Of a DNA stretch of 64,000 nt, positions 1,191 through 54,395 are shown one piece after another. Within the stretch, counting starts at the first letter, position 1; every line of letters begins with the position of its first letter. The position numbers were made by a program, and so were the translations under genes. The stretch is from IMG/VR virus record IMGVR_UViG_3300005399_000003, one strand, 5' to 3'. Under the pieces are notes generated by a model. It had not been told where the DNA came from, did not search any database, and was given only the letters and a program-made list of their open reading frames with translations. The stretch is from a virus. Lineage: Duplodnaviria > Heunggongvirae > Uroviricota > Caudoviricetes.

Positions 1191-1238
1191 GCACAAGTCA
1201 GCTTTGACTTACCACAACGAGAGGGGCATAACAGACCC

Positions 1239-3161
1239 ATGAAATTCACACAGATCACCTTACAAAACTTCGGGCGCATCAAAGAGGCGACCGTGAAGCT
1301 ATCTGATCGGGGACTTGTCCTCATTCAGGGTCAAAACATGGATGGCTCCGCTGCGAACAGCAACGGTGCCGGCAAATCTACACTGGTCGAGGCAATCAGC
1401 TGGGTGCTCTACGGCAAGACCGCAAAGGGTGTCACGGGCGACAGCGTCATCAACCGCGAAGCGGGAAAGAACTGTGCCGTTCATCTGACAATCGAAGATG
1501 GTGACGAGAGCTACACGATTAGCCGCGGGCGCAAGCACAAGGTTCTCAAGTCGAAGCTGCATGTCACGACAGGTGACGGCAAAGTCGATCTGACAAAGGG
1601 CACCGACAAGCTGACACAGGATGTCGTCAACAAGATCATTGGCTGCCCCTATGATGTCTTCGTCGCCGCAGTCTACGCAGGGCAAGAAGCCGTGCCCGAT
1701 CTTCCCGGCATGGGTGACAAACAGCTCAAGCTCCTGATCGAAGAAGCCGCGGGCATCACTGAGCTTGAGGAAGCCTATGTGAAGGCCCGGGCCGACGCGC
1801 AAGACATCGGCGCTGAGTATGAGCGCGCCGCAGGGCGTGTCGAGCGTGCCGATACGGGTATTGAGCATGCCCGCATTCGCATGGAAGACGCCGAGCGCAG
1901 CGCGAAACGCTGGGAGGGTGAGCGTGATGCGCGCCTTATGGACATCGAAACCCAGGCTAAGACCTCGATCGAGGAAGCAAAGCGCCTGAAGGAAGCTTTG
2001 GGCAAAGACAGCCCGCTCAAGGAGCTGAACGAGCAGCTCGACAAGGCGATGGTCAGCAAGGGCAAGCTCGATCAGGAAGCTGAGACGGAAGACGATCACA
2101 AGACGGTGCTCAAAGACGCTGAGCGCGTGGTCACAGGCGTCGAAACCAAGATCGGGATGGTTAAGACGCAGCTCAAGAAGGCGAAGGACTACGAGAAGGA
2201 AGTCGAGGGCCAGATGGGTCAGCCCTGCGAAGCGTGCGGGCGGGACCATGACGAGACATCGCTGGAAAAGACCATCGAATACGCCAAGGGCAAAGTGCAA
2301 GAAGTCGCAAACGAAGCCCGCGCCCTGATCGCTGAGCTAAAGGATGCTCAGAGAAGCGCACAGAGCGCCCGTGAGAGCTTGGAGAAGTATCAAGCGGGGA
2401 TGACTGACCCAACGCACTTGGAAGCCCACATAGGGGCGCTGAGAGCGAAGATCAAAGAGCGCACCGATCAAGAAGCCGAAGTTGTGAGAGCGAAGAAGAC
2501 GGCTCAAGAGGCGCTTGACCTGCTCAAAGCTGAGCGGGCGCGGGAAAACCCCTATCTGCCTGAAATCAAGGATCGCAAGAGCGATCTGAGTGAGGCGGTT
2601 AAGAAGCGCACTGAGGCTGAGAAGGCCCGTAAAGAGATCATGGAGGAGGCGAAGATCGCCAAAGGGGTTGTTGAAGTGTTCAGCCCCAAAGGCGTGCGCG
2701 CCCGCATCCTTGATACCGTCACGCCCTATCTCAACGAGCGCACGGCGCACTATCTCGGCGTTCTCGGCGACGGGCGACTGCAAGCACGTTGGTCAACGAT
2801 CAGTCTGACAGCAAAGGGCGAGGCACGCGAGAAGTTCGCCATTGATGCATCCGATCTCGAAGACGGTGGCAACTTTGCTGACCTCTCGGGCGGGGAGAAG
2901 CGCCGGGTAAGATTGGCATGCGCCCTGGCACTGCAAGACTTGGTCGCAACCCGCGCTGCAAAGGCAATCGACTTGTTTGTCGCCGACGAGATCGACGCGG
3001 CGCTCGATGTCGCAGGGTTGGAGCGCTTGATGACGGTGCTTGAAGAGAAGGGCCGCGAGCGGGGCAGCGTGATCGTGATCAGCCACACGGATCTGAGAGA
3101 TTGGTGTTCCAATACGATCACGGTGCGCAGAGAGAATGGAACATCGAAGGTGATCGAATGA
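1239..3161 (+). CDS. SbcC/Rad50-like SMC-family ATPase (T4 gp46-like)
   Basis: Walker A GAGKST at the N-terminus and a long coiled-coil middle region. The C-terminus carries the signature LSGGEKRRV, Walker B LFVADEIDAALD and an H-loop SHT. Confidence 0.8.
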   Translation: MKFTQITLQNFGRIKEATVKLSDRGLVLIQGQNMDGSAANSNGAGKSTLVEAISWVLYGKTAKGVTGDSVINREAGKNCAVHLTIEDGDESYTISRGRKHKVLKSKLHVTTGDGKVDLTKGTDKLTQDVVNKIIGCPYDVFVAAVYAGQEAVPDLPGMGDKQLKLLIEEAAGITELEEAYVKARADAQDIGAEYERAAGRVERADTGIEHARIRMEDAERSAKRWEGERDARLMDIETQAKTSIEEAKRLKEALGKDSPLKELNEQLDKAMVSKGKLDQEAETEDDHKTVLKDAERVVTGVETKIGMVKTQLKKAKDYEKEVEGQMGQPCEACGRDHDETSLEKTIEYAKGKVQEVANEARALIAELKDAQRSAQSARESLEKYQAGMTDPTHLEAHIGALRAKIKERTDQEAEVVRAKKTAQEALDLLKAERARENPYLPEIKDRKSDLSEAVKKRTEAEKARKEIMEEAKIAKGVVEVFSPKGVRARILDTVTPYLNERTAHYLGVLGDGRLQARWSTISLTAKGEAREKFAIDASDLEDGGNFADLSGGEKRRVRLACALALQDLVATRAAKAIDLFVADEIDAALDVAGLERLMTVLEEKGRERGSVIVISHTDLRDWCSNTITVRRENGTSKVIE

Positions 3162-3661
3162 CTTTGAAGGAAGAGAAGCTGGCAGCCAAGAAGATCTCCG
3201 AGGAGCTGCTGAGTGAATACGGGATGGAGGTTCTCAAGGTTGCGCTGCTCGGTGTGAAGATCGACGTGCATCCGGGCGCCCATGTCACCTGCTACGACAA
3301 GGACAAGACAGGCCCCGGCGGGGTGCCTTCGCGCTTTTCCAAAGGGCTCGCGGTCAATGGTCAGGAGCTGATCATTAAGGATATTCGATCAGGCTCAAAG
3401 CATAAGGTCATCTTCATCTGCGAGATTGCGGATGGGGAGTTCTCAGGCATCTCCTTCTCGGGCAAGCCGATCCCTTTTGACCGAATGGGCATTGAGATTA
3501 CCGCCTATGATCTGCCCGCAACCGTCAAAGCCTTCGAGAACATCTTTCAGTGCATTCGAGATATGGATGAGGACGATCCGCGCTTCGACGACCCGCCCCA
3601 TGAGGCGCGGCCTGCTATCACTACAGAAGAACTCGCCGCCGAAGGCTTCGGGGCATGGTAA
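3158..3661 (+). CDS. hypothetical protein with C-terminal EGFGAW tail
   Basis: ATGA overlap with the upstream gene. No Mre11/SbcD phosphoesterase motifs are present. Confidence 0.5.
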   Translation: MTLKEEKLAAKKISEELLSEYGMEVLKVALLGVKIDVHPGAHVTCYDKDKTGPGGVPSRFSKGLAVNGQELIIKDIRSGSKHKVIFICEIADGEFSGISFSGKPIPFDRMGIEITAYDLPATVKAFENIFQCIRDMDEDDPRFDDPPHEARPAITTEELAAEGFGAW

Positions 3662-3671
3662 AGGAAAACAC

Positions 3672-4238
3672 ATGAGCAAGATCACCATTCTCGGACACGA
3701 CCCGAGCTTCGCCAACTGGGGCTTTGCCCTTGTCGATGTGGACGTTGCAACGCTAGAGATGCACCCCAAGCTGATTTATCTGCAAAAGACCGCGAAGTCG
3801 AAGAACAAGCAGGTGCGGGCCAGCTCCGACAAGCTGACCCGTGCGCGGCAGCTTCGGGAAACCTTTCTCAAGCTGGAAGCTAAGGCGCATATGAATGCGG
3901 CCGAGGTTCCCGAAGGCTCGAAGTCCGCGGCGGCCGCCACAGCTTTGGGCATCGCTACAGGGGTGCTTGCATGTCACAGCAAACCCTTGATCGAGGTCAA
4001 CCCTGTAGGGGTCAAGAAGGCGATTACGGGCTATTCCCAAGCCTCCAAAGAGGAGATGCTTGAGTGGGCCGTGGGGCTTTACCCTGATCTGCCGTGGAAG
4101 AAGGGTAAGGCGATGCTGGGCAAATATGCCGGGGAGTGCGAACACCTCGCCGATGCGTTGGCGATTGTCTACACTGCGATCCGTACCGAGCAGTTCAAGC
4201 AAGCCGCTGCCATGTTCTCTGTAGGCCACGCCGCATAA
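3672..4238 (+). CDS. RuvC-like Holliday junction resolvase
   Basis: N-terminal ILGHDPSFANWGFALVD and C-terminal EHLADALAIVYTA are RuvC-fold motifs. Confidence 0.65.
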   Translation: MSKITILGHDPSFANWGFALVDVDVATLEMHPKLIYLQKTAKSKNKQVRASSDKLTRARQLRETFLKLEAKAHMNAAEVPEGSKSAAAATALGIATGVLACHSKPLIEVNPVGVKKAITGYSQASKEEMLEWAVGLYPDLPWKKGKAMLGKYAGECEHLADALAIVYTAIRTEQFKQAAAMFSVGHAA

Positions 4239-4324
4239 TCTTCTTGCACCATATATAGTAAGTCATTACTGACTGGTGTATAGTTATAGGTCTGGTCAAT
4301 CGTAAATCCCGAAAGAGGAAACCC

Positions 4325-6770: not shown

Positions 6771-6812
6771 CTGCAACGAATAGTCAGCAATGACTTACTC
6801 AGGAACAATCTT

Positions 6813-7642: not shown

Positions 7643-7730
7643 CTTACCCTCTGGACTGAAAACCCTATTGCCCGTCCAGCTATGATGGGCAATAACAAGT
7701 AAGCAATGACTTACACAGCAATGAGGGAAC

Positions 7731-11594: not shown

Positions 11595-11662
11595 GTCACA
11601 TGCGACACTTGCCCGTCCACAAGGGCGGGCGTATCAATTAGTCAGCAATGAATGAGAGACAC

Positions 11663-12704: not shown

Positions 12705-12773
12705 GAAAGTCAAAGATGACTTATTGGAGCTTAGAAAACATGCTATCATGTAACTCTAATCAAAGGAGCGCGC

Positions 12774-16058: not shown

Positions 16059-16147
16059 CAGGCCCGATCATAAGATTGCCCGTCCAGATATGGGCGGGCA
16101 TCAAGTCATTACTGACAGAGCAATGACGCAAACGAAAGGGAAACCCC

Positions 16148-18278: not shown

Positions 18279-18467
18279 CCCAAGGCGTCTGAGAGACGCG
18301 CTGTGAGCGGGTCTACAGCGGCTGGACGCCCCTTCGATGGGTGAGGGGTGCCCGAAACCCTAGCGCCCTTCTGCGGGGCGCTAATTCAGCCCGATAGGCG
18401 GGTCTCGGGCATTGCGTCACCACTGACTTACATTCATAAATGACGGGTAAAGCGAGAGGGAAAGAGA

Positions 18468-20022: not shown

Positions 20023-20083
20023 ATTAGTGATATACTCACCAGTGACTTACTGTCACAGTGAAAGTTCAGAAAGAGAGCGTAAG

Positions 20084-21776: not shown

Positions 21777-21849
21777 GCGATACGTCAGCTTTGACTTGCC
21801 TCATTTGCGGGCTGATATTGAGTGCAGATCAGAAAGAAAGGGAAAGCCC

Positions 21850-22209
21850 ATGACACAGGAACGCACGATCAAGGTCAGCATGAACGCAATTATGGCGGAA
21901 GCTGTTTGCGCATATGTGGACGAGCAAATGAGCCATGACCCTGATGAAGCTCGCATGAAGGCCCTGCAAGACGCCGACGACAAGGCTATGGAGGTTCTGC
22001 GCGGGACCAATTTGATGCACAGCGGTACTGTTCTGTACGAGGATGATCGCGTCATCCTCTTTGAGCACCCGATCCACGGGGATGAAGCGCCGATCATGGG
22101 CTACCTCAAAGAAGAGGAGTTCTTCATGGAGAACACGATGTTCTATGAAGTCGATGATCGCCACTGCATCGTGTCCATGCTCGAAGCCCAAGCTGGGGCG
22201 CCTTATTAA
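21850..22209 (+). CDS. hypothetical protein
   Basis: GAAAGGGAAAGCCCATG initiation motif. Confidence 0.5.
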   Translation: MTQERTIKVSMNAIMAEAVCAYVDEQMSHDPDEARMKALQDADDKAMEVLRGTNLMHSGTVLYEDDRVILFEHPIHGDEAPIMGYLKEEEFFMENTMFYEVDDRHCIVSMLEAQAGAPY

Positions 22210-22287
22210 GCAAGGCGACACGTCAGCTTTGACTTACCTTGTTCGTGCCCACATAAAGGGTGCGAACACAATGAAAGGGATTCGCTC

Positions 22288-22719
22288 ATGTCGAGGTTCA
22301 TCTTCTATCGCCACACTGTTCTCGGCGATCATATCGACGCCTATCGCTCGATCATGCGCTTGCAGGCAGACAAGATTGTCCCGTGGTGGACTGTTGCTGA
22401 GTACGCAGCGAATGGCGGCTACTTTAAGGCAGCTCAGATCGAGGCGGGGTCGCTGGAGGAAGCGTGGGATCGCGCTCACACTGACCACATGCCCACGGGG
22501 CGCTACGTCAAGACATTGGATGCCCGCTGCCCGGGCCATTCGTCAGTCACTGACATCTTCGAGGATTGCACCACCGGTGCGCTGTGGATGTGTCTGGACA
22601 CGGGTTGGGCTGAGATGCCTGACGATACCGCCGAGCACTTCCGGGCGCACATCAAGCCCCCGGTGCTGAAAGATCAACCGCTGACAGATTTCATGGTCTC
22701 GCTTGAGGAGTTGCGCTGA
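22288..22719 (+). CDS. hypothetical protein
   Basis: GAAAGGGATTCGCTCATG. Confidence 0.5.
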   Translation: MSRFIFYRHTVLGDHIDAYRSIMRLQADKIVPWWTVAEYAANGGYFKAAQIEAGSLEEAWDRAHTDHMPTGRYVKTLDARCPGHSSVTDIFEDCTTGALWMCLDTGWAEMPDDTAEHFRAHIKPPVLKDQPLTDFMVSLEELR

Positions 22720-23027
22720 TGACTGACTGCCCCCGCGTTGACCATCTCCCAGGTTACGACCACGACGAGCGTACCCGCTACAAGGCGCGCATTGAGGTCG
22801 ACGACGAAGGTGTCGTCTGGCTTGGCCCGCATGACACGCTGCATGACGTGCAGGTCGCCTACATCAAGAAGCGCAATGCAACGGGGCTAGGTGCCTCGGG
22901 CTTCGGCAGCGGTGATGTCTTCGACGAGCGCGGGCAGCACCTTGCCCGCATTTCCTACAACGGTCGGCTTTGGCGCCCTTGGAGCGCCGGGGTTATGATC
23001 GCAGAATCCCCGGAGGTAGAGGCATGA
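22719..23027 (+). CDS. hypothetical protein
   Basis: Coupled TGATG junction. Confidence 0.45.
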   Translation: MTDCPRVDHLPGYDHDERTRYKARIEVDDEGVVWLGPHDTLHDVQVAYIKKRNATGLGASGFGSGDVFDERGQHLARISYNGRLWRPWSAGVMIAESPEVEA

Positions 23028-23296
23028 CTATCATCCCCGTCACCGAAGACACGACATTCGCGCAGATGCGGGCCGCCGCTCATAGTCCGCACGAGCTAAT
23101 GACCATGCTCGATAGCCCCGAGGGTTCGACGGGCTACGGCTATTGGATTGAGTTCGGCTCGGTTGATGCGCCAATGATCTACAACGTATTCACCCATGGC
23201 CCAGATTGGGTCTGCATGAAGCGGGAAGGGTCTAAAGGCGAGCCCATGTGGCATCAGTGGCGCGACCTCGATCCCTTTCGCGTGGTGGTAGCGTAA
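23024..23296 (+). CDS. hypothetical protein
   Basis: ATGA overlap. Confidence 0.45.
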   Translation: MTIIPVTEDTTFAQMRAAAHSPHELMTMLDSPEGSTGYGYWIEFGSVDAPMIYNVFTHGPDWVCMKREGSKGEPMWHQWRDLDPFRVVVA

Positions 23297-23481
23297 TGGG
23301 TGATTTAGCTGACGACGCCTGGGACTCGATGTTTCAAGACGAGCAAGACGCAAAGGATGTCAAGCGCGCCTTGCAGCTGCGCTGCGACAAGGCCCCGATG
23401 GTCTGCGAGGGGCATAAGGCAGAAATGAACGACGATGGACTTTGGGAATGCCCGAAGTGTCATCAGATGGTCGATTTGTAA
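23296..23481 (+). CDS. small zinc-ribbon protein
   Basis: TAATG overlap. Motif CEGH...CPKCHQ. Confidence 0.45.
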   Translation: MGDLADDAWDSMFQDEQDAKDVKRALQLRCDKAPMVCEGHKAEMNDDGLWECPKCHQMVDL

Positions 23482-23491
23482 GGAGAGAGAC

Positions 23492-23848
23492 ATGCCACAG
23501 GGATTGCCTACGCGCGATCAGAACTATCACGTCGATGGGCTGCCGCGCTCGATCAAGGCGAAGATCACAGAGCTTGGGGAGGCTGCGGCAGAGTATGCTT
23601 TCATTGGCGCGCAAGACCCCGAAGATCACGAGGCGATTGAAGATCATGCGCATATCGCCCGCTACAACCTTGAGCGCAACATCAAGACGCTGCTTGACCG
23701 CAAAGATAAGCGGATCAGAGAGCTAGAGAAGACGCTGGAGAAGGTTGCAGAGAACGACGGTCGCGGCGCCCATTACATGCTCTGCCATGACTGCAACGAC
23801 AACAGCGAACTCGCCAAGAAGCAACTGGAGAAGAAAGACCATGGGTGA
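23492..23848 (+). CDS. hypothetical protein
   Basis: AGGAGAGAGAC RBS. Confidence 0.45.
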   Translation: MPQGLPTRDQNYHVDGLPRSIKAKITELGEAAAEYAFIGAQDPEDHEAIEDHAHIARYNLERNIKTLLDRKDKRIRELEKTLEKVAENDGRGAHYMLCHDCNDNSELAKKQLEKKDHG

Positions 23849-24167
23849 ACATGCAGAAGCGGCACTCTATGCCGAGATGATGGGCGGCGACCCTGACGAC
23901 GTGACTGCCGAAGACTATATGGCGTATTATGAAAGCCTGAAGCCACCGGCGCCGAACATGATCGCGCTGGATGCGGACATGGCCCTGAGTTCGATCAGGC
24001 AATGGGGTGACGAAGATAGCCCGCCATCTGTCCCGGAGCTGATCGAGAGCCTGTTTCCCAAGCTGACTAAAGAGGAAGCTGAGACGGTCGCAAAGGGGCT
24101 TGAGCTGCTGGCAGCACAGTATGACGACAGCGCCCATGACGAAGACGACGAGGAAGACCCTGAATAG
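23841..24167 (+). CDS. acidic hypothetical protein
   Basis: 8-nt overlap with the upstream gene. The C-terminus is DEDDEEDPE. Confidence 0.45.
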   Translation: MGEHAEAALYAEMMGGDPDDVTAEDYMAYYESLKPPAPNMIALDADMALSSIRQWGDEDSPPSVPELIESLFPKLTKEEAETVAKGLELLAAQYDDSAHDEDDEEDPE

Positions 24168-24175
24168 CCCTCAGA

Positions 24176-24262
24176 GCGCCCCGCTGAGAGCTTTGGCGGG
24201 GCTTTTGCATACACACCCCCATGAAACACAGTGGAAGCGCTCTACGGGGCGCTTTTTCTTTG
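24176..24262 (+). terminator. two tandem rho-independent terminators
   Basis: GCGCCCCGC...GCGGGGCTTTTG, then AGCGC...GGGGCGCTTTTTC. Confidence 0.55.
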
Positions 24263-24324
24263 CAGTAGGCATCAAGTCAGTTTTGACTTACCGCCCCCGA
24301 GGGGTGATAACGGGTGACAGTCAA

Positions 24325-24717
24325 ATGAAGGGTGCCGTGATGTTCGGGAAAACTGCTATGCTTTGCCTTGCTCTGAATGCCTATTTCGAGGCGCGGGGCG
24401 AGGGTGTTGAAGGCATTCATGCCGTAACGCATGTGGTGATCAATCGCATCGACAGCCCGCGCTGGCCCAATGAGGCGTGCGAGGTGGTCTTTCAGCCCTG
24501 GCAGTTCACCTGGACGATGGAGAAGACATACGAGGTCAAAGAGGATGTCTTGGCTGAGGTCTACGAGCATGTGGTGGATGCCGTGCAGCTTCCAGACAGC
24601 ACCCGAGGCGCCACGCACTATCACGCCACATATGTGTCACCTAAATGGGCAGGTATTTACCCCCGCACAGCTTTTGTTGGTGATCATATCTTTTATAAGG
24701 CGCTGTCTGGCATGTGA
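24325..24717 (+). CDS. SleB-family cell-wall hydrolase (putative endolysin)
   Basis: LALNAYFEARGEG...AVTHVVINR is the Hydrolase_2/SleB signature. Confidence 0.75.
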   Translation: MKGAVMFGKTAMLCLALNAYFEARGEGVEGIHAVTHVVINRIDSPRWPNEACEVVFQPWQFTWTMEKTYEVKEDVLAEVYEHVVDAVQLPDSTRGATHYHATYVSPKWAGIYPRTAFVGDHIFYKALSGM

Positions 24718-24794
24718 AGGATATAAAGTCACTATTGATTTACCTGTTATCCCTTAATATAAGGGAATCAAATAAAGACGAGAGAAGGGAATAT

Positions 24795-25094
24795 ATGGAT
24801 TATCAAATGATTGATGGTGAGGTCATGGCCTCGGAGCATCCTAAAACTTGGGAGATGCCTTCGGAGCAAGACCGCAAGTCACTTAAAGTAGGTGATCACG
24901 CTAAGATTGGACTTCGCATCAAAGATGGCCCTGGAGAGCGCTTCTGGCTGAAGGTCACGCAGGTCATTCAGTGCGATGATGGCTCGGGGCGCGTCATGTA
25001 TCAAGGCGCGGTGGACAATGATCTGGTCGTCTTCGACTTCCCGGTTGGTCACATTCTGGACTTCGAGCCGCGGCACGTTCTGACGGTCATCTGA
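24795..25094 (+). CDS. hypothetical protein
   Basis: ORF that follows an AT-rich patch at 24714-24800. Confidence 0.45.
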   Translation: MDYQMIDGEVMASEHPKTWEMPSEQDRKSLKVGDHAKIGLRIKDGPGERFWLKVTQVIQCDDGSGRVMYQGAVDNDLVVFDFPVGHILDFEPRHVLTVI

Positions 25095-25183
25095 TATTTG
25101 CGCATGGTCACAAGTCATTCGTGACTTGCCATAAATGACCCTGCATCTTGGGTCTATCGAAACACGAGAGAAAGGGAGCACTC

Positions 25184-25690
25184 ATGCCCAATTGGTGCGA
25201 GAACAGATGGACAATCGACGCCCAAACCCCTGAGCGGGTGCAGGAGATTGCCGAAGCGTTGCAGGTCGATGGAAAGTTCAGCTTCAACAGCCTGATCCCG
25301 ATGCCCGAGATCCTCAAGAGAACAGCCTCGGGCAGTATCACGATCGACGGCGAGAACGTGCGCAGCTGGATCACGGAGACGGATGCTGACGGCAAGAGGA
25401 TTGATCGTCTTCCCACCGAAACAGAGAAGGCCCAGCTCAAAGAGATTGGCGCAAGCAACTGGTACGAATGGGCCAATGATAATTGGGGCACCAAGTGGGA
25501 TGCCTGCAATGTTGAAATGCACGTCTTCGGCAGCGGCATCAGCCTCAGCTTCGACACAGCATGGGGGCCGCCCGCGCCTGTCGCTCGCGCTCTCGCTGAC
25601 AAGTTCGACCACATCGACTTCCACCCCCGCTGGGGTGGCGTCGAGATGGAGCTGGATGACGAAGGTGGCTTCATCGACCTCGAATACTGA
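25184..25690 (+). CDS. hypothetical protein (N-terminal MPNWCENRW)
   Basis: GAGAGAAAGGGAGCACTCATG leader. Confidence 0.5.
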   Translation: MPNWCENRWTIDAQTPERVQEIAEALQVDGKFSFNSLIPMPEILKRTASGSITIDGENVRSWITETDADGKRIDRLPTETEKAQLKEIGASNWYEWANDNWGTKWDACNVEMHVFGSGISLSFDTAWGPPAPVARALADKFDHIDFHPRWGGVEMELDDEGGFIDLEY

Positions 25691-25713
25691 AACCCCTGAA
25701 CAGGAGAAAGAAC

Positions 25714-26280: not shown

Positions 26281-26343
26281 TTAAGCACGCAGTCACCAGT
26301 TATTCATTGGTGACTGCACATCGGAAAGGGAAAGGAGGGCTTT

Positions 26344-26871: not shown

Positions 26872-26949
26872 GGCGACAAGTCAGCTTTGACGTACCACAA
26901 CTGCCCCTGCACATTGTAGGGGCAGACAGCAAAACGAAAGGGAAGACCC

Positions 26950-28930: not shown

Positions 28931-28933
28931 GGC

Positions 28934-29041: not shown

Positions 29042-29044
29042 CTA

Positions 29045-29687: not shown

Positions 29688-29750
29688 CCCCACCATGGAC
29701 GTGCCATGGACGTGCCATGGCGTTGGCGTGTTGCCGTGACCATGGCGACA
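29688..29750 (+). promoter_or_regulatory. array of 5 CCATGG palindromes upstream of AGTCA-N4-TGACT element
   Basis: ACCATGGCC, ACCATGGAC, GCCATGGAC, GCCATGGCG and ACCATGGCG within about 65 bp. Confidence 0.5.
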
Positions 29751-29818
29751 AGTCATCGTTGACTGTCCAGCTCTGCGGGGTGATTGTGGGTTTGTTCAAG
29801 CATGAAAGGGAAAGCTCA

Positions 29819-30700: not shown

Positions 30701-30939
30701 CGAGAAAGGCGAGGGAAAGGCGGGGTTTGGGCCTAGATATAGCCATGGAGCTGCCATGGTAATAATCTTGCGCAGTTTTGGCTTGGAGCTTAATCTCACC
30801 CCGGAGGCGATTGATCTCGCCTTCAATGAAATCAAAGGGTTGCTAGGCGAAAGATTATTGCGCGTTGGCAGCTGTTTTGGGGTGATCTGCCGCTATTGAG
30901 GGGTGATAAGGGCTGTAGAGCAACAGAAAGGGATTACCC

Positions 30940-31654: not shown

Positions 31655-31795
31655 GTCTTCCATGGCACGGCCATGGCAAAGCTACCATGGCGTTTGCCTA
31701 AACGCGGCCATGGCAGGTCCATGGAGATCAGGCCATGGTCTTCTCCTAAACGCGGCCATGGCGGGTCCATGGCGTTTCGGCCATGGCGCCCCGGG
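31655..31795 (+). promoter_or_regulatory. array of 9 CCATGG palindromes incl. ~40-bp tandem repeat
   Basis: Nine G/TCCATGGC sites within about 135 bp. CTAAACGCGGCCATGGC(A/G)GGTCCATGG is duplicated. Confidence 0.55.
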
Positions 31796-32803: not shown

Positions 32804-32854
32804 TGGGTAAATCCCTTTCAAGTGTTGCGGGCTGTTTCGCCCGTATCTCTTTCT

Positions 32855-33000
32855 AAGTCATCTTTGACTTGATTCGCAATATCCCTTTCCCATTAAATCG
32901 CCCCCTTTTCCCCTTTCCCCATATAAAGGGATTAAATCGCCCCCTTTTCATAAAAGCGCATTTTAGGGGTTGCGAATCAAGTCACCCCTGACTTATACAT
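32855..33000. promoter_or_regulatory. composite regulatory region: two AGTCA-N4-TGACT elements embedded in a 15-bp inverted repeat flanking 2x direct repeat ATTAAATCGCCCCCTTTTC
   Basis: The TTGACTTGATTCGCAA...TTGCGAATCAAGTCA arms enclose the direct repeats. Confidence 0.5.
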
Positions 33001-33058
33001 ATTTCACGGGCAACGAAGCGCCCCGCAAGAAAGCGCTTCACATGAAAGGGAAAGACCC

Positions 33059-36116: not shown

Positions 36117-36167
36117 GTTGTGCTCCTGTTAGTCAGTTGTGACTTACTTTAGCAGGCAAATGAAGTC

Positions 36168-37512: not shown

Positions 37513-38124
37513 TCAGGCGATGATATAGGGCCGCGTGATCCGCCGTTCGGGGAAGAGGGCGTTGTAGCGCATCACGAAGTTGGCGTAAGCGTAAGGGGGC
37601 AGCTGGGGGTTGATGATCACTTGGTCATCAGGGATGCACAGATGGGGCTCTGGCGGCGCGTAGTTCTCTTTGAGGTCGCGCACTTCGGTGTTGAGCATGA
37701 TGGCGTCGAGTTCTTTGATTTCGGCGCAATCCCACATGTCAGGGTCGATTTCGTGATCTTCAAAGATCATCCGGGTGACGTTGGTCTCATGCCCCTTGAT
37801 GGAGGGACACTTGCGTTTCAGGGGCGTGACAATCTCGCCGATCCAAGCTTCGCCTGCATCATGCAGTAGGGCTGCGCGGGCAAGGTCGATATTGCTACCC
37901 TCATGCAAATCCTCGGCCCAATACGACATGATGGTCGAATGCTGTGCGACGGAGTAATACCCGTTGGTATAGCCGTTAAAACGGCTCTGGTTCGCCAATG
38001 AGATGGCGACAGTTGACATGTCGATCATGTCTCGCTGAGGGTTTGTGAAGTCAATCTTGGCTCCACCCAGTGTCCAAAGTTCCGTGTCTTTGGTTTCCAT
38101 CATTGTCGTGACTGGCAATGTCAT
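37513..38124 (-). CDS. HD-domain 5'-deoxynucleotidase (YfbR-like)
   Basis: YSVAQHS, LLHDAGEAWIGEIVTP matches YfbR VSEHS, YHDASEVLTGDLPTP. Confidence 0.7.
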   Translation of the reverse strand: MTLPVTTMMETKDTELWTLGGAKIDFTNPQRDMIDMSTVAISLANQSRFNGYTNGYYSVAQHSTIMSYWAEDLHEGSNIDLARAALLHDAGEAWIGEIVTPLKRKCPSIKGHETNVTRMIFEDHEIDPDMWDCAEIKELDAIMLNTEVRDLKENYAPPEPHLCIPDDQVIINPQLPPYAYANFVMRYNALFPERRITRPYIIA

Positions 38125-38738
38125 GCTCCCGTTCTCAATCGCGTATCTCTAGCGCCGTTAATCCAATCTGTGAGGGGTGATTGAAGAATCGCTCTCCGAA
38201 GGCCTTCCAAAGAAGTCCCTGGATTATGAATGGTGAAGTCCACCAGGCTACGATCGTAGCTGTCGAACTCCCACTCACTAGCTTCCTTTAGCCCGCTCAA
38301 TACCTCTACGACGACACCACCAGCTCTTTTGTAAGCCGCGCCCTGCTGTCTTCGTACACTTCCAAAGCTGTAACCGTTGGGTGACTTATTGTCACCCCAA
38401 AACTGTCCCGAGGGTGTCACATTTTGTCGCAAGACGGAACGAATAGCGATTTCAGGAATTGCTTCATCCCCCAAAAGCGCTTCCACAAGATTGCCATATT
38501 CCCCAAGCAGCTGTCGAACTTGCCATTTCTTGCCGAAAACCGTGACGAAACGTAGCTTTCCTTCTTGAGAATATACGTCTTCAGGGGTCAGGCCCGCAAG
38601 GTCCATGACGTGACGCCGGATGATGTCGCCATCGTCCACTGGCTCGATTCCGAATAGTTCGGTAAGTAAGCGCTGAGTTGTTGTTTTCCCTGAGCCTGGA
38701 GCGCCGCAGAGTGCGATCAAAGTCGATGTTCTCGACAT
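38121..38738 (-). CDS. deoxynucleoside monophosphate kinase (T4 gp1-like P-loop kinase)
   Basis: GAPGSGKTT P-loop. KWQVRQLLGEYGNLVEALLGDEAIPEIAI parallels T4 gp1 QWSVRRLMQALGTDLIVNNFDRMYW. Confidence 0.55.
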   Translation of the reverse strand: MSRTSTLIALCGAPGSGKTTTQRLLTELFGIEPVDDGDIIRRHVMDLAGLTPEDVYSQEGKLRFVTVFGKKWQVRQLLGEYGNLVEALLGDEAIPEIAIRSVLRQNVTPSGQFWGDNKSPNGYSFGSVRRQQGAAYKRAGGVVVEVLSGLKEASEWEFDSYDRSLVDFTIHNPGTSLEGLRRAILQSPLTDWINGARDTRLRTGA

Positions 38739-40286: not shown

Positions 40287-40373
40287 GACATTACCTTGCT
40301 ACAAAGGGGTTTATCTTATACATTATAACTCAGAAATGACTTACCTTATACCCCTCCTTCAGGCAAGGACAGC

Positions 40374-42938: not shown

Positions 42939-43802
42939 ATGCCTGAAGACTTTGCCACCGAGATCGTCTGCGACCCGCAGGCCAAACCTGCATTCCCGCT
43001 GTTGTCGGAGATGTACGTCGAGCGCGGCACGCAGGAAGATTGGAACCTGCTGCACCATCTGCACTACAAGTCCGACCACAACCCTATCGGCGCGCGCTAC
43101 TATCGCCTTGTGTTGGACGGTGAGACAATCGGCGTCTGCGGGATCACCCAGCCCCGGCCCTTGGGCAAGGAGCGTCATCAGATTTGGAAGAAGCTCACGC
43201 CGGGGAATGACACCAAGGCCTCGAACCGCTTTCGGTACAAGTGGGTCAACAAGAACATCGTGGTGATCGGCCGCATTGTGCTGGACACGATGTACCGCGG
43301 CGTGGGCGCCTCGTATCGCTTTCAGAACATTGTTGCCCGCAAGTCTGGCATGCCGATTGTCGAGATCATGTCCTCGATGTCGAAGTACAATCCCTTCGCG
43401 CAGAAGGCGGGGTTTGAGTTCGTGCGCCCCATGCGGTCGAACAAGTTCGATGTCGGCATGAAGTTCTTCCGGGCCAACTTCGATGCGCACCCCGCCGATC
43501 TCGATGGACTGCTCAAAGAGATCGACGCAATGCCTGAGGCCGCCCGGGGCTTGATGGTCGATCGTATCAAGACGTTCTACTACCGCCACTCCGCCAACGA
43601 GAAGACGGGTGACGCCCGCGACATCGGGCAGGAGCGGGTGCGTAACATGAGCACGAGCCTTGTCTTGCGTCAGTTGCAGCAGCTGGTGCTCTCAACGCCG
43701 CTTTACGGGGTCTACATGAACCCGGACTTCGGGCGCGATCTTCCCGATCAAATCCCACTCACCGCTTTTGATGCTCAACCGACGACGGAGCCGCTGAAAT
43801 GA
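42939..43802 (+). CDS. GNAT-like acetyltransferase-fold protein with C-terminal extension
   Basis: AAGGGAG RBS. GRIVLDTMYRGVGASYRF is motif-A-like. Confidence 0.45.
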   Translation: MPEDFATEIVCDPQAKPAFPLLSEMYVERGTQEDWNLLHHLHYKSDHNPIGARYYRLVLDGETIGVCGITQPRPLGKERHQIWKKLTPGNDTKASNRFRYKWVNKNIVVIGRIVLDTMYRGVGASYRFQNIVARKSGMPIVEIMSSMSKYNPFAQKAGFEFVRPMRSNKFDVGMKFFRANFDAHPADLDGLLKEIDAMPEAARGLMVDRIKTFYYRHSANEKTGDARDIGQERVRNMSTSLVLRQLQQLVLSTPLYGVYMNPDFGRDLPDQIPLTAFDAQPTTEPLK

Positions 43803-44119
43803 TGACCTATGAGAAAGACCCATATCGTCTGACCAAGAAGCAGATGCATGTGCTTTCTGTAATCGCCCGAGGCGGGGATGATGGTGACTTCCTCGACCTC
43901 GATCAGCTCTTGGAGAAGATCAACTATGAGACGACCAAAGCCTCGATGCACTTCACGCTCCGAGGCCTGCTGCGTCGGGGTATGATCGAGAAGAAGGGCC
44001 AGGAGCTGCGCCGAGGGCGTCAGCGCTTGGTGTTGGCCCCGACAGTGAAAGGGCAGGGCATGGTGCGCACCGACAGCTCCGGTGGCGGGGTTGTGATGGA
44101 GGGATTCGACGAGGTCTAG
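43799..44119 (+). CDS. winged-helix DNA-binding protein
   Basis: LTKKQMHVLSVIARGG...MHFTLRGLLRRGMIEK has an ArsR/MarR-like wHTH pattern. Confidence 0.45.
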   Translation: MMTYEKDPYRLTKKQMHVLSVIARGGDDGDFLDLDQLLEKINYETTKASMHFTLRGLLRRGMIEKKGQELRRGRQRLVLAPTVKGQGMVRTDSSGGGVVMEGFDEV

Positions 44120-44490
44120 GCCCGAGGATGCCTGTCAACCGAAAAGCGAAGGACAGGGGTGCGACATATTGTCACCACATCGCTAAGAATCATTCCCCCT
44201 GTCCCTCTACTCGCTTCACTCGTAGAGTGTACTAGTAAGTAAATATAAGTCAATTAGTATTTAGCGGATGTGGTGACACTATGTCGCACCCAAAGGACTT
44301 GACATAAAATCAGCCACTTAGGCGATTCTGGCTCCTCGGGAAGATAAGTAAGCGCTGACTTGTATGTTATCGCCTAATCGCTTATACTTAGGACACCACC
44401 CGGTATCCGGTTTTCCCTGTTCACGGTCCTCGGGTGTCTCTCGTCAGGCCCGCTCTTTCGGGAGCGGGCCACCCTAATTCAGCAGGAACC
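44120..44490. promoter_or_regulatory. AT-rich non-coding region with 24-bp inverted repeats; candidate pac/cos or late-control region
   Basis: GGTGCGACATATTGTCACCACATC at 44156 pairs with GATGTGGTGACACTATGTCGCACC at 44267. Further inverted repeats and a GGCCCGCTC-TTTCGG-GAGCGGGCC hairpin at 44446-44472. Confidence 0.5.
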
Positions 44491-46384: not shown

Positions 46385-46437
46385 GCTTTGAAATCAGTCA
46401 GCACTGAGTTACAATGCCCAGGCCAAAGAGGTTCATC

Positions 46438-49046: not shown

Positions 49047-49240
49047 TGACTTGCCAGGTTGTTGCAACTAGGGCGCCTTCGGGCGCCCTTTTCTTTGGGT
49101 GTTGCATAGATGCCATGCGGTGTGGTATTATTAGTCATCGCTGACTGATCGAGAGAATGGGAGGTCGGCACCCCAATGCGCGCGAGTGACCGCTGCGCCT
49201 GGTCTGCAAATCTCAAAACCTATCTCTTGGAGGATTCCAA

Positions 49241-50143: not shown

Positions 50144-50221
50144 TCGTGCCAATAAGTCACGAATGACTTACAATAGGGCAGGCTCTTCGGGGCCTGCCCT
50201 TTTTCACATAGAGGAACAGAT

Positions 50222-50788: not shown

Positions 50789-50789
50789 G

Positions 50790-53533: not shown

Positions 53534-53534
53534 G

Positions 53535-53720
53535 ATGTGGAACCCGGTCAAATGGTTCAAGCGATGGCGAAAGCTGCGGGGCATTGATGAAGAGATCAGC
53601 GCAGCCAGCACGGCGCTTTATCTTGCCCTTGCGGCCAATGATGTGAAGCGCATGGCCCGCTTGAGACATATCCTGCATCAGCTGATGGATGAGCGACATC
53701 GAGTTAAGCTCGACCTGTGA
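53535..53720 (+). CDS. small basic protein
   Basis: ORF; start uncertain (TTG 53520 or ATG 53535). Confidence 0.35.
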   Translation: MWNPVKWFKRWRKLRGIDEEISAASTALYLALAANDVKRMARLRHILHQLMDERHRVKLDL

Positions 53721-53811
53721 TCCTGCCTTAGCCCTATTGGTAAGTCAATACTGACTGTGGTATACTTGCGCCAGTTGTGCCCGTTCACCGACTTACTGAA
53801 AGGATCATTCG

Positions 53812-54330
53812 ATGCCCAGCTCCACACAGAACGTCAAGGTCGGTGTCTGCACCGTTGACTTTGGCGGCACCAATCTCGGCTTCACCAAAGGCGGCGTGTC
53901 CGTCTCTGTGACCACCGAGACTTACTCCGTCACCGTCGACCAATTTGGCGACACCGCAATCTCTGAAATCATCACGGGTCGTACCGTCACCGTGAGCACA
54001 CCTCTTGCCGAGACCACGCTCGAAAACCTCGTGCAGGTTATGCCTGGCGCCACTCTGATCGGCACCGGTGCCAGCAAGAAGGTCGAAGTTGTCGATGCGG
54101 TCTCCACTGACTTGCTGTCGATCTCCGACAAGCTGACCCTGCACCCGCAGGCGCTTGCTGAGACTGACAAGTCGGAAGACTTTGTCATCCCCTACGCCTC
54201 GACGCCTGGTCAGATCGAGTTCGCCTACGAGCTGAACTCCGAGCGCGTGTTCAATTGCGAATGGAAGGGCTATCCCGACCCGACCACGCGCGTTCTCTTC
54301 ATCTTCGGTGACGAGACAGCTACGGCCTAA
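53812..54330 (+). CDS. major tail protein
   Basis: GAAAGGA RBS. Ser/Thr/Val-rich beta-strand protein upstream of the chaperone and tape-measure genes. Confidence 0.6.
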   Translation: MPSSTQNVKVGVCTVDFGGTNLGFTKGGVSVSVTTETYSVTVDQFGDTAISEIITGRTVTVSTPLAETTLENLVQVMPGATLIGTGASKKVEVVDAVSTDLLSISDKLTLHPQALAETDKSEDFVIPYASTPGQIEFAYELNSERVFNCEWKGYPDPTTRVLFIFGDETATA

Positions 54331-54395
54331 GATTGAAGTCAGTGGTGACTTACACTAAGATGAAGTCACCACTGACACTCACAAGGTTCCCCAAC

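What the first reader, a model, noticed from the sequence alone, without database searches (positions are those of the whole stretch)
1196..54380. Genome-wide palindromic promoter-like element AGTCA-N4-TGACTTAC in more than 25 intergenic regions
Instances: 1196, 4250, 6782, 7698, 11638, 12707, 16104, 18414, 20036, 21783, 22221, 24274, 25113, 26291 (longer spacer), 26878, 29750, 32855, 32979, 36130, 40330, 46394, 49133, 50154, 53742, 54336 and 54363. Each lies 30-80 bp upstream of a start codon. It precedes both early genes and late structural genes. The right arm plus flank, TTGACTTAC, contains a near-consensus -35 hexamer (TTGACT). The left arm, AGTCA, makes the whole a 14-bp dyad. Either a dedicated phage regulator binds the dyad, or it is a sigma-70-type promoter with a conserved upstream arm.
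Basis: seen in the sequence. Interest (0 to 1): 0.75.

Follow-up and report, generated by a model that had tools for sequence, protein, structure and literature searches.

The report
Dispersed operator dyad on phage-plasmid promoters
A 16-18 bp palindrome, T-AAGTCA-N4-TGACTT-A, sits on top of about thirty ordinary promoters in this phage and its many phage-plasmid relatives, which most likely lets one phage-encoded repressor switch nearly all phage genes off at once.

Summary
AAGTCA-N4-TGACTT occurs 31 times at two mismatches or fewer, against 1.5 expected. Of these, 27 lie in the 9.5% of the window that is intergenic.

The window is a siphovirus of the SSU5/RHEph10 phage-plasmid family. In 80 relatives retrieved through their portal gene alone, the same dyad is the commonest dyad. 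It holds the same positions: before ParB/helicase, TerS, portal, major capsid and major tail genes. It appears in elements from alpha-, beta- and gammaproteobacterial hosts. Some lineages carry variants at the same positions (AAGTAAG-NN-CTTACTT, AAATCA-N4-TGATTT).

Arm changes are mostly one-sided and break pairing, so this is a protein site, not an RNA stem.

The dyad is not itself a fixed promoter element. It overlaps sigma-70-type promoters in at least four registers, centred at -41.5, -36.5, about -19.5 to -24.5, and about +2. Near family dyads, 69 of 154 have a strict promoter match in the gene direction and 4 in reverse.

Best reading: a dispersed operator for a phage-encoded dimeric repressor. 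This works like P1 C1 operators or mycobacteriophage L5 stoperators.

Best candidate binder: a conserved XRE helix-turn-helix protein encoded outside the window. Binding and repression are inferred, not shown.

The parts
1195..1210 (.). dyad AAGTCAGCTTTGACTT (0 mismatches), upstream of the SbcC-like gene
   Evidence: TTGACT, then 17 nt, then CATAAC, read by eye.
4260..4275 (.). dyad AAGTCATTACTGACTG, upstream of ribonucleotide reductase
   Evidence: TATAGT abuts its 5' side.
6781..6796 (.). dyad TAGTCAGCAATGACTT
   Evidence: 16 nt before the called start codon.
7697..7712 (.). dyad AAGTAAGCAATGACTT, upstream of ThyX, preceded by the GCCCGTCC hairpin
11639..11654 (.). weak copy TAGTCAGCAATGAATG (3 mismatches)
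12707..12722 (.). dyad AAGTCAAAGATGACTT
16103..16118 (.). dyad AAGTCATTACTGACAG
18414..18429 (.). dyad GCGTCACCACTGACTT
20033..20048 (.). dyad TACTCACCAGTGACTT
21782..21797 (+). early-type dyad ACGTCAGCTTTGACTT. Its right arm gives the -35 TTGACT (21791-21796); the -10 is GATATT (21814-21819).
   Evidence: dyad centre -36.5
22220..22235 (+). early-type dyad ACGTCAGCTTTGACTT; -10 CATAAA lies 17 nt after TTGACT
24274..24289 (+). early-type dyad AAGTCAGTTTTGACTT; -10 GATAAC lies 17 nt after TTGACT
25112..25127 (+). dyad AAGTCATTCGTGACTT
26291..26315 (.). variant AGTCACCA-N9-TGGTGACT, with half-sites 15 nt apart, upstream of the HTH-like gene 26344-26871
26878..26893 (+). early-type dyad AAGTCAGCTTTGACGT; -35 TTGACG (26887-26892), -10 CACATT (26910-26915)
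29750..29765 (+). early-type dyad AAGTCATCGTTGACTG; -35 TTGACT, -10 GATTGT (29782-29787); preceded by five CCATGG repeats
32855..32870 (.). dyad AAGTCATCTTTGACTT in the divergent gap 32804-33058
32979..32994 (.). dyad AAGTCACCCCTGACTT in the same divergent gap
36130..36145 (.). dyad TAGTCAGTTGTGACTT between two minus-strand genes. On the minus strand TAAAGT abuts it.
38664..38679 (.). doubtful copy AAGTAAGCGCTGAGTT inside ORF 38121-38738
40327..40342 (.). single dyad AACTCAGAAATGACTT in the helicase/ParB divergent gap. -10-like hexamers lie next to it on both strands (TACATT for +, TAAGGT for -).
   Evidence: The position is conserved in relatives: 16 of 23 loci before the helicase and 27 of 43 before ParB.
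44346..44361 (+). dyad AAGTAAGCGCTGACTT abutting the promoter TTGTAT (44360-44365), 17 nt, TATACT (44383-44388), upstream of TerS. Dyad centre -41.5.
   Evidence: The same layout is seen across the family.
46395..46410 (+). dyad CAGTCAGCACTGAGTT filling the spacer of TTGAAA (46388-46393), 16 nt, TACAAT (46410-46415), upstream of portal
   Evidence: Dyad conserved upstream of portal in 57 of 80 loci.
49132..49147 (+). dyad TAGTCATCGCTGACTG immediately after the promoter TTGCAT (49102-49107), 18 nt, TATTAT (49126-49131), upstream of the major capsid gene. Terminator at 49070-49096 just before.
   Evidence: Dyad conserved upstream of the capsid gene in 59 of 76 loci.
50154..50169 (+). dyad AAGTCACGAATGACTT inside promoter-like GTGCCA (50146-50151), 17 nt, TACAAT (50169-50174). 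A terminator hairpin follows at once (about 50175-50206).
53742..53757 (+). dyad AAGTCAATACTGACTG inside TTGGTA (53737-53742), 18 nt, TATACT (53761-53766), upstream of the major tail gene
   Evidence: Dyad conserved in 25 of 36 loci.
54336..54351 (+). dyad AAGTCAGTGGTGACTT in the spacer of TTGAAG (54333-54338), 17 nt, TAAGAT (54356-54361)
54363..54378 (+). dyad AAGTCACCACTGACAC just after that -10. It is the reverse complement of 54336, including the central 4 bp.

Best explanation
The element is a dispersed operator: the binding site of a phage-encoded dimeric DNA-binding protein, placed on or against the core of ordinary sigma-70-type promoters throughout the genome.

The same palindrome lies in at least four positions relative to promoter hexamers:
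- just upstream of the -35 (centre -41.5);
- over the -35 (centre -36.5);
- inside the spacer (centre about -19.5 to -24.5);
- over the start site (centre about +2).

All of these fall inside the RNA polymerase footprint. The protein most likely acts as a repressor that shuts early, replication and structural promoters together. A phage that persists as a plasmid needs this. It works like the C1 operators of P1 or the repressor sites ('stoperators') of mycobacteriophage L5.

The best candidate for the protein is a conserved XRE-family helix-turn-helix protein encoded at the head of the CobT/CobS/DNA polymerase III operon in relatives. That region lies outside this window.

Shown here: the motif, its enrichment, its family-wide and positional conservation, its protein-type (non-pairing) variation, and its overlap with promoter-like hexamers oriented with the genes.

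Inferred, not shown: that a protein binds it, that binding represses, and which protein it is.
For: Enrichment and placement:
- Searches show the enrichment and the intergenic placement.
- Both divergent gaps carry a dyad and both convergent gaps lack one.

Family-wide conservation:
- An exact-pattern scan of IMG/VR returned more than 40 homologous loci with G+C 0.43-0.68.
- In 80 loci retrieved by portal homology alone, AGTCA-N4-TGACT is the top dyad in most.
- The dyad lies upstream of portal in 57 of 80 loci, major capsid in 59 of 76, TerS in 37 of 58, major tail in 25 of 36 and ParB in 27 of 43.
- It lies upstream of TerL in 0 of 60 loci, of g42939 in 0 of 53 and of g53150 in 0 of 48.

Host independence:
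- The same dyad occurs in plasmid-sized contigs of Magnetospirillum, Faunimonas, Massilia, Chitinibacter, Photobacterium and a Piscirickettsiaceae genome.

Protein site rather than RNA stem:
- With one deviation, 80 are pair-breaking and 31 are G-U. With two deviations, 184 are one-sided breaks and 19 are compensated.
- Single dyads fold at only -0.5 to -6.9 kcal/mol.

Promoter overlap:
- 69 of 154 family dyads have a strict -35/-10 match in the gene direction and 4 in reverse.
- The -10 starts cluster at offsets 16, 38-39 and -5 to -10 from the first base of the dyad.

Lineage variants at orthologous positions:
- V1VFA-S carries AAGTAAG-NN-CTTACTT, about 31 copies in 90 kb. Many lie 0-2 nt after a -10-like hexamer (TATAAA, TATAAC, TATTGT).
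- RHph_Y2_11 carries AAATCA/CAATCA-N4-TGA(C/T)TT.

Candidate repressor:
- V1VFAS_105 (Pfam HTH_3) is homologous to CYRAN_45. CYRAN_45 is annotated as a putative repressor and is expressed in the Cyrano lysogen (PMC9928086).
- Both are homologous to a gene in an AAGTCA-type contig.
- Dyads flank that gene: 23 within 250 bp upstream across 63 loci, and more just downstream.
- Homologues are present in all 10 Rhizobium and 9 Klebsiella/Escherichia members. They are absent from the nickie-like, Stenotrophomonas and Xanthomonas relatives.
- The three such relatives I checked have no dyads.
- A helix-3 residue tracks arm position 5. Valine goes with C in 10 of 10 loci. Asparagine goes with A in 5 of 8 and never with C.

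Known precedents:
- Dispersed repressor sites are described for P1 (PMC8198154) and Cluster A mycobacteriophages (PMC6550527).
- The family has plasmid genes parA, parB and repC (PMC12509600).
Against: - No binding, transcription-start or expression data exist for any member.
- The candidate XRE gene is not in the window, and I could not recover that part of this genome.
- The helix/half-site and presence/absence correlations are confounded by shared ancestry.
- Enterobacterial members have the XRE homologue but only a few dyads.
- SSU5 itself has a few dyad-like sites but no detectable XRE homologue.
- Many window copies lack a convincing -10/-35 pair by the strict scan. My gene starts are home-made.
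- Two features are not needed by a simple repressor model. Close dyad pairs are full inverted repeats including the central 4 bp. Some dyad-bearing promoters are followed at once by a terminator.
- A centre at -41.5 is also the classical position of class II activators.
Confidence: 0.55

Rival explanations
1. The dyad is the site of a phage-encoded activator or early-to-late switch protein. It turns on late promoters from -41.5 or from the spacer, and blocks early promoters by covering their -35. Phi29 p4 acts in such a dual way.
For: - The dyad centre is at -41.5 at the conserved TerS and distal capsid promoters.
- Dyads precede the most highly expressed late genes: capsid, major tail and portal.
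- Early copies in the window sit differently, over the -35.
Against: - The promoters at -41.5 already have near-consensus TTGACA and TAnnnT hexamers at 17 bp, so they need no activator.
- Many copies lie over the start site or fill a normal 16-18 bp spacer. Known activators other than the MerR type do not work from there, and MerR-type promoters have long 19-20 bp spacers.
- No activator-like gene was identified.
Confidence: 0.15
2. The dyad loads an antitermination factor onto RNA polymerase at many promoters, in the way the Q-binding element of lambda PR' works. This lets transcripts pass the terminators that follow.
For: - Across the family the TerS promoter is followed by a leader of about 50 nt and a strong terminator directly before TerS.
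- After the capsid gene the dyad, inside a promoter-like site, is followed at once by a terminator in the window, V1VFA-S, RHph_Y2_11, L102, L105 and L032.
- Several dyads lie between the -35 and the -10, as the lambda Q site does (the lambda comparison rests on my own knowledge).
Against: - No Q-like gene was found.
- Known Q sites are not palindromes and occur once per genome.
- Most dyads have no terminator after them.
- The varied registers do not suit a factor that must engage a paused polymerase at a fixed distance.
Confidence: 0.1
3. The motif is simply the phage's promoter consensus: a -35 TTGACT with an upstream arm, read by host sigma-70 or by a phage sigma factor. No separate regulator is involved.
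For: - Eight or so window copies contain TTGACT or TTGACG with a -10-like hexamer 17 nt downstream.
- One related lineage encodes a sigma-70 region 2 protein, V1VFAS_109.
Against: - The -35 role fits only one of at least four registers.
- The left arm is as conserved as the right, with T at position 0 in 89% of family copies. A -35 hexamer does not need that.
- The sigma-like gene is confined to the V1VFA-S lineage: 9 loci in IMG/VR.
- Copies only 8-18 nt from a start codon cannot be a -35 for that gene.
Confidence: 0.08
4. The dyad acts in RNA or single-stranded DNA as a hairpin. It could be a processing, stability or termination signal between cistrons, or a structured promoter.
For: - It is a perfect 6-7 bp inverted repeat in short gaps between genes.
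- Close pairs are full inverted repeats (5 of 31 with 4-of-4 central matches, against 0.8% expected).
- The window pair 54336/54363 folds to -25.4 kcal/mol, z = -5.
Against: - Arm sequence, not pairing, is conserved. One-sided pair-breaking changes dominate.
- Single hairpins are weak, -0.5 to -6.9 kcal/mol, and several are no better than shuffles.
- No U-tract follows them.
- Dyads are absent from convergent gaps and present in divergent ones.
- Where the -10 abuts the dyad, the transcript would start inside it and lack the left arm.
- No Rfam family matches.
Confidence: 0.05

Closest known systems
C1 repressor operators of phage-plasmid P1
   Same: One repressor has many operators scattered over a roughly 100 kb phage that persists as a plasmid. 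Each operator lies at a promoter that must be silent in the plasmid state (PMC8198154).
   Different: - P1 operators are 17 bp and asymmetric (my own knowledge). Here the site is a symmetric 6-4-6 dyad.
- P1 late genes are controlled indirectly through Lpa (PMC8198154). Here the structural-gene promoters themselves carry the dyad.
- No sequence relation to C1 was found. No C1 homologue was looked for specifically.
Repressor sites ('stoperators') of Cluster A mycobacteriophages (L5, Bxb1)
   Same: - There are 20-30 repressor sites spread through short intergenic gaps of both early and late regions.
- Motif variants differ between lineages and track repressor divergence and immunity.
- Some members are extrachromosomal and carry parA (PMC6550527).
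   Different: - L5 sites are 13-14 bp, lack dyad symmetry, are oriented with transcription and are mostly not at promoters (PMC6550527).
- Here the site is palindromic and mostly overlaps promoter hexamers.
KorB/KorA global operators of plasmid RK2
   Same: Palindromic operators are repeated about a dozen times on a plasmid, some just upstream of the -35, and give co-ordinated repression. The family also encodes two ParB-like proteins. The RK2 facts rest on my own knowledge.
   Different: - The phage ParB-like proteins match only the ParB N-terminal domain.
- They are present unchanged in dyad-free relatives such as nickie and BUCTxx99.
- The operator sequence is unrelated.
PeSL (promoter-early stem-loop) cassettes of T4-type phages
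   Same: Repeated early-promoter cassettes lie in front of many small early genes. The window's early region repeats dyad, -10 and a GAAAGGGAAAG ribosome-binding leader at a fixed 51-56 nt. The PeSL facts rest on my own knowledge.
   Different: The dyad is also at late and replication promoters, in several registers. It is conserved across distantly related phages rather than within one genome.

Membership tests
sigma-70-type promoter | -35-like and -10-like hexamers 16-18 bp apart, oriented with the downstream gene | tested here: met
   69 of 154 family dyads have a strict match in the gene direction and 4 in reverse. All three + strand promoter-like sites found in window 40-56 kb overlap dyads. 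Many window copies fail the strict scan.
sigma-70-type promoter | the motif itself holds one fixed position in the promoter (for example, it is the -35) | tested here: not met
   -10 starts cluster at offsets 16, 33, 38-39 and -5 to -10 from the first base of the dyad.
dispersed repressor operators (P1 C1 / L5 type) | many copies spread over the genome, in intergenic DNA, at or next to promoters of lytic genes | tested here: met
dispersed repressor operators (P1 C1 / L5 type) | a phage-encoded repressor binds the sites and silences transcription | not testable with these tools
   Only a candidate exists: the XRE protein homologous to V1VFAS_105 and CYRAN_45.
dispersed repressor operators (P1 C1 / L5 type) | motif variants differ between lineages together with the repressor | tested here: inconclusive
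   Variants sit at orthologous positions. A helix-3 residue tracks arm position 5. The lineages are not independent.
L5-type stoperator | asymmetric 13-14 bp site, oriented with transcription, mostly away from promoters | tested here: not met
   The site is a symmetric dyad and overlaps promoter hexamers. The definition is from PMC6550527.
class II activator site (CRP/FNR type) | dyad centred at -41.5 at a promoter with a poor -35 | tested here: not met
   The centre is -41.5 at the TerS and distal capsid promoters, but these have TTGACA-like -35 hexamers. Other copies sit at -36.5, -19.5 and +2.
intrinsic terminator | G+C-rich stem followed by a T run | tested here: not met
   The stem is A/T-rich and 6 bp long, with no T run. 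True terminators lie beside some dyads.
structured RNA element | pairing kept through compensatory change | tested here: not met
   One-sided pair-breaking changes dominate. No Rfam match.
lambda Q-type antitermination site | factor-binding site at a promoter, a terminator downstream, and a Q-like protein | tested here: inconclusive
   A promoter followed by a terminator is seen before TerS (family) and after the capsid gene. No Q-like protein was identified. Pause elements were not examined.

The most novel reading that the evidence does not exclude
The dyad-binding protein may be more than a repressor. The dyads may form a two-state promoter architecture.
- Pairs of dyads that are exact inverted copies bracket the core promoter.
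- Dyad-bearing promoters are followed at once by terminators.

On this reading, one palindrome-binding factor would clamp or loop promoters shut in the plasmid state. In lytic growth it would travel with RNA polymerase as an antiterminator. That would be a Q-like system using a palindromic site at about 30 promoters, shared by hundreds of phage-plasmids.
Probability: 0.1. Interest if true: 0.8.

Novelty: new member of a known kind. Interest (0 to 1): 0.5.

Why it matters
SSU5-like phage-plasmids are common in Enterobacteria, rhizobia and many environmental proteobacteria. How they stay silent as plasmids is essentially undescribed.

- A single conserved operator on nearly every promoter gives a direct handle on that switch.
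- It predicts the regulon from sequence alone.
- It suggests that the lineage variants (AAGTCA, AAGTAA, AAATCA, GAGTC) mark immunity groups.
- It points to one conserved XRE protein to test.
- It provides a simple sequence signature for finding members of this family in genomes and metagenomes. An exact 14-base pattern pulled out dozens of them.

Tried and rejected
- **Near-identical phage.** Megablast of the first 20 kb against GenBank phages found nothing. The closest published portals are 43-48% identical.
- **g43799 (winged helix) as the binder.** The fold is MarR/PadR-like. However, the recognition helix Y-E-T-T-K-x-S-x-Q-F-S-x-R is the same in relatives with no dyads, such as L128, L168 and L190. 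I demoted it.
- **g26344 (HTH-like).** It has only sub-threshold Pfam matches and no relatives in IMG/VR by the single-protein scan. It remains untested.
- **A phage sigma factor.** V1VFAS_109 has a sigma-70 region 2, but relatives were found only in 9 loci of that lineage. I rejected it as a family-wide explanation.
- **The Cyrano putative repressor and CYRAN_37.** Neither has a homologue inside the window.
- **ParB-like proteins.** They are present unchanged in dyad-free relatives, so they give no signal.
- **RNA readings.** There is no Rfam family and no tRNA in the window. Single hairpins are weak.
- **Literature.** Searches for the motif, SSU5 promoters, and RHEph10 or V1VFA-S regulation found no description of this dyad.
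- **Extending the window to reach the XRE locus.** I recovered only 7.4 kb upstream, as L254. The look-up tool does not accept proteins from outside the window.

Full report
**1. What the window is.**
The 64 kb window has 55-60% G+C. It encodes an SbcC-like protein, class II ribonucleotide reductase, ThyX, dUTPase and RtcB. A block of small genes of unknown function follows. A minus-strand block ends in a helicase. Then come two ParB-like proteins, an ATPase, a TerS-like DNA-binding protein, TerL, portal, major capsid, major tail, tape measure and tail fibre.
- The nearest published portals are 43-48% identical. They belong to Salmonella phage SSU5 and its Klebsiella/Escherichia phage-plasmid relatives, Rhizobium phages RHEph10, RHph_* and V1VFA-S, and Pseudomonas phage nickie.
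- Relatives sit as contigs of about 100-115 kb in isolate genomes of Magnetospirillum, Faunimonas, Massilia, Chitinibacter, Xenorhabdus, Yersinia and others.
- The Rhizobium members carry parA, parB and repC and are regarded as likely prophage-plasmids (PMC12509600).
- Gene coordinates used below come from my own codon-usage caller, so start codons are approximate.

**2. The observation.**
- Exact TGACTTAC occurs 15 times against 0.48 expected.
- The element is a 6-4-6 palindrome, AAGTCA-N4-TGACTT. It has 20 copies at 1 mismatch or fewer, 31 at 2 or fewer and 56 at 3 or fewer. The shuffled expectations are 0.1, 1.5 and 14.
- 27 of the 31 copies lie in 45 intergenic gaps that make up 9.5% of the window. 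25 gaps carry a copy. Both divergent gaps have one and both convergent gaps have none.
Three copies were missed (18011, 24726, 44346). One listed copy is weak (11638). One is a long-spacer variant (26291).
- Distances to the next start codon run from 8 to 131 nt.

**3. It is a family trait, not a quirk of this genome.**
Among 118 loci it returned more than 40 that encode homologues of the window's structural and ParB-region proteins at 40-60% identity, with G+C from 0.43 to 0.68.
- To remove the circularity, I retrieved 80 loci by portal homology alone, out of 516 relatives. AGTCA-N4-TGACT is the commonest 5-mer dyad in most of them.
- The dyad holds the same positions:
  - in the helicase/ParB divergent gap (upstream of the helicase in 16 of 23 loci and of ParB in 27 of 43);
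  - about 85-130 nt before TerS (37 of 58);
  - before portal (57 of 80), major capsid (59 of 76), the gene after capsid (13 of 25) and major tail (25 of 36);
  - never before TerL (0 of 60), g42939 (0 of 53), g50790 (0 of 30) or g53150 (0 of 48).
- The family consensus from 157 non-redundant copies is T-AAGTCA-N4-TGACTT-A.
- Hosts span Alpha-, Beta- and Gammaproteobacteria. A host factor is therefore unlikely, and a phage-encoded one is the natural reader.

**4. Lineage variants.** These occur at the same orthologous gaps.
- Rhizobium phage V1VFA-S carries GT-AAGTAAG-NN-CTTACTT-AC, about 31 copies in the 90 kb examined.
- RHph_Y2_11 carries (C/A)AATCA-N4-TGA(C/T)TT.
- Halomonas, Qipengyuania and Chelativorans elements carry AAGTAA-N4-TTACTT.
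- SSU5 has a few AAGTA..TACTT sites in its tail region.
- Nickie, Stenotrophomonas phage BUCTxx99 and Xanthomonas phage JGB6 have none.

**5. Protein site or nucleic-acid structure?**
- Among copies with one deviation from the 18-mer, 80 break the pair and 31 give G-U.
- With two deviations, 184 are one-sided breaks, 34 one-sided G-U, 19 compensated and 5 doubly broken.
- The compensated ones are lineage-wide half-site changes, such as CAGTCA...TGACTG.
- Single dyads fold at only -0.5 to -6.9 kcal/mol as RNA, and several are no better than shuffles.
- No Rfam family matches.
- This is the behaviour of a symmetric site read by a protein dimer, half-site by half-site.

**6. Relation to promoters.**
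I anchored on 154 non-redundant family dyads in the plus-strand ParB-to-tail block.
- TAnnnT peaks at offsets 16 (54 sites), 38 (30), -5 (19) and -12 (16) from dyad base 1. TTG peaks at offsets -7 (28) and 15 (32).
- With a strict rule (at least 4 of 6 in each hexamer, at least 9 of 12 in all, A2 and T6 in the -10, spacer 16-18), 69 of 154 dyads have a promoter match in the gene direction and only 4 in reverse.
- The -10 starts cluster at offset 16 (20 sites), 38-39 (22 sites) and -5 to -10 (17 sites).
- If the -10 starts at -12, these three clusters put the dyad centre at -19.5 (filling the spacer), -41.5 (abutting the -35) and about +2 to +7 (over the start site).

The TerS region shows the -41.5 layout across the family. 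The order is dyad, TTGACA, 17 bp, TATAGT/TACAGT/TATGCT, a leader of about 50 nt, then a strong terminator just before TerS.

The capsid region often has two dyads. One is at -41.5. The second starts 0-7 nt after the -10.

In the window:
- 44346 is at -41.5 (TTGTAT, 17 nt, TATACT).
- 46395 and 50154 fill the spacer.
- 53742 and 54336 lie in the spacer.
- 49132 and 54363 follow the -10 directly.
- 40327 lies between -10-like hexamers on both strands in the divergent gap.

In the early-gene block (12.7-33 kb), the right arm with the last spacer base reads TTGACT or TTGACG. A -10-like hexamer follows after 17 nt, putting the centre at -36.5. The start codon lies 51-56 nt from the dyad, behind a shared GAAAGGGAAAG leader.

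In V1VFA-S, many dyads in the replication and nucleotide-metabolism region lie 2 nt after TGCnnT, 16 nt, TATAAA.

So the dyad is tied to promoters, but in at least four registers, all within the polymerase footprint.

**7. Mechanism.**
An element that works from -41.5, -36.5, -19.5 and +2 alike is what operators of repressors look like. Activators need a fixed geometry. The promoters at -41.5 already have near-consensus hexamers, so they need no help.

The dyad marks early, replication and structural promoters together. The family lives as plasmids. The most economical reading is therefore a master repressor that silences all lytic promoters directly in the carrier state.
- This works like C1 of P1 (PMC8198154).
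- It also works like the Cluster A mycobacteriophage repressors, with their 20-30 sites and lineage-specific motif variants (PMC6550527).
- Membership of those families fails on sequence and symmetry. Their sites are asymmetric, and L5 sites are mostly not at promoters.
- This is therefore a new member of the kind, not a member of either family.

Steps shown: motif, conservation, promoter overlap, protein-type variation. Steps inferred: binding, repression, biological role.

**8. Which protein?**
- The winged-helix protein 43799-44119 (phrog_900) folds like MarR/PadR (pLDDT 77) and lies just upstream of the TerS promoter. Its recognition helix is unchanged in dyad-free relatives. It probably reads something else.
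- The 26344-26871 protein has only sub-threshold HTH matches and no detectable relatives. Its upstream site is the odd long-spacer variant.
- A sigma-70 region 2 protein exists only in the V1VFA-S lineage.

A better candidate is an XRE-family protein.
- V1VFAS_105 (Pfam HTH_3) is 29.5% identical over 105 residues to CYRAN_45 (E = 2e-12). CYRAN_45 is the putative repressor expressed in the Cyrano lysogen (PMC9928086).
- It is 39% identical to a gene on an AAGTCA-type 114 kb contig.
- 78 IMG/VR loci encode relatives, many on contigs of 100-120 kb that also came up in the portal search.
- The gene heads the CobT/CobS/DNA polymerase III operon and is flanked by dyads. There are 23 within 250 bp upstream across 63 non-redundant loci, and further copies before the next two genes.
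- Among published relatives, it is present in all 10 Rhizobium and 9 Klebsiella/Escherichia members. It is absent from the nickie-like, Stenotrophomonas, Xanthomonas and Pelagibacter phages. The three of these that I checked lack dyads.
- The residue after the conserved (P/A)N at the start of helix 3 tracks arm position 5. Valine goes with AAGTCA (10 of 10 loci). Asparagine goes with AAGTAA (5 of 8, none with C). Methionine is mixed.
- All of this is confounded by ancestry, and the gene lies outside the window. I recovered only 7.4 kb upstream. That stretch holds one more early-type dyad and an unrelated 89-residue HTH_3 protein.

**9. What does not fit.**
- Dyad pairs 27-60 bp apart that bracket a core promoter tend to be exact reverse complements, including the non-palindromic central 4 bp. 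5 of 31 pairs match 4 of 4, against 0.8% expected, in three independent lineages. The window pair folds to -25.4 kcal/mol as one strand.
- Some dyad-bearing promoters are followed at once by a terminator: the family TerS leader, and the gap after the capsid gene.
- These features keep an antitermination or looping role open. I give that about 10%.

**10. Verdict.**
The motif is real. It is a strongly conserved cis-regulatory dyad of a large phage-plasmid family and sits on sigma-70-type promoters. It is most likely the operator of a global phage repressor. I found no description of it in the searchable literature. It is a new member of a known kind of system. It is of moderate interest and directly testable.

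Noticed in passing
window 29682-29746, 30743-30759, 31660-31790: There are arrays of the palindrome CCATGG, often 11 bp apart: 5, 2 and 9 copies. They lie in early-region gaps that mostly lack the AAGTCA dyad, although the first array ends 4 bp before dyad 29750. CCATG-N7-CATGG gives 11 matches against 3.2 expected. They may be sites for a second regulator, or iterons.
   Followed up: partly
window 44157-44290: An inverted repeat with arms of about 30 bp (GGGTGCGACATATTGTCACCACATCGCTAA ... TTAGCGGATGTGGTGACACTATGTCGCACCC) lies upstream of the TerS promoter. Relatives L156, L167, L151 and L128 carry large A/T-rich palindromes at the same place. It may be a packaging site or a terminal-repeat edge.
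   Followed up: no
window about 7668-7696, 11608-11638, 16074-16102: A repeated hairpin, TTGCCCGTCCA-N3-6-TGGGCGGGCA, lies directly 5' of three dyads. It looks like a shared terminator-like element without a T run.
   Followed up: no
window 54336-54378; L143, L144, L126, L165: Paired dyads that bracket one promoter are exact reverse complements, including the central 4 bp. The window pair folds to -25.4 kcal/mol as a single strand.
   Followed up: partly
window 50175-50206; family loci upstream of TerS: The order is promoter, then terminator. An intrinsic terminator follows the dyad-bearing promoter-like site after the capsid gene. In relatives a strong terminator sits in the TerS leader. The window's own TerS leader has a hairpin (44447-44471) without a T run.
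   Followed up: partly
window 21782-29830 (early promoters at 22220, 24726, 25112, 26878): Early genes share a leader, GAAAGGGAAAG-N3-5-ATG, 51-56 nt from the dyad. In several, the -10 lies in the loop of a small inverted repeat whose sequence differs from site to site.
   Followed up: no
window 32871-32960: Between the two dyads of the divergent gap there are repeated ATTAAATCGCCCCCT units and C/T-rich tracts. These could be iteron-like or origin-like.
   Followed up: no
window 26291-26315: Upstream of the HTH-like gene 26344-26871, the half-sites AGTCA and TGACT lie 15 nt apart instead of 4. That is one extra helical turn.
   Followed up: no
L236 18890-19534 (Rhizobium phage V1VFA-S): A 214-residue protein has a sigma-70 region 2 domain (30.9 bits, cut-off 24). 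It lies between the CobS-like gene and the DNA polymerase III alpha gene. Relatives were found only in 9 IMG/VR loci of that lineage.
   Followed up: yes
L254 1-7462 (DNA upstream of the window start): This stretch holds an SbcD-like phosphoesterase, RNase H, a DUF4942 methyltransferase-like protein, an 89-residue HTH_3 protein, an RMF-like protein and one more early-type dyad (L254 4185).
   Followed up: partly
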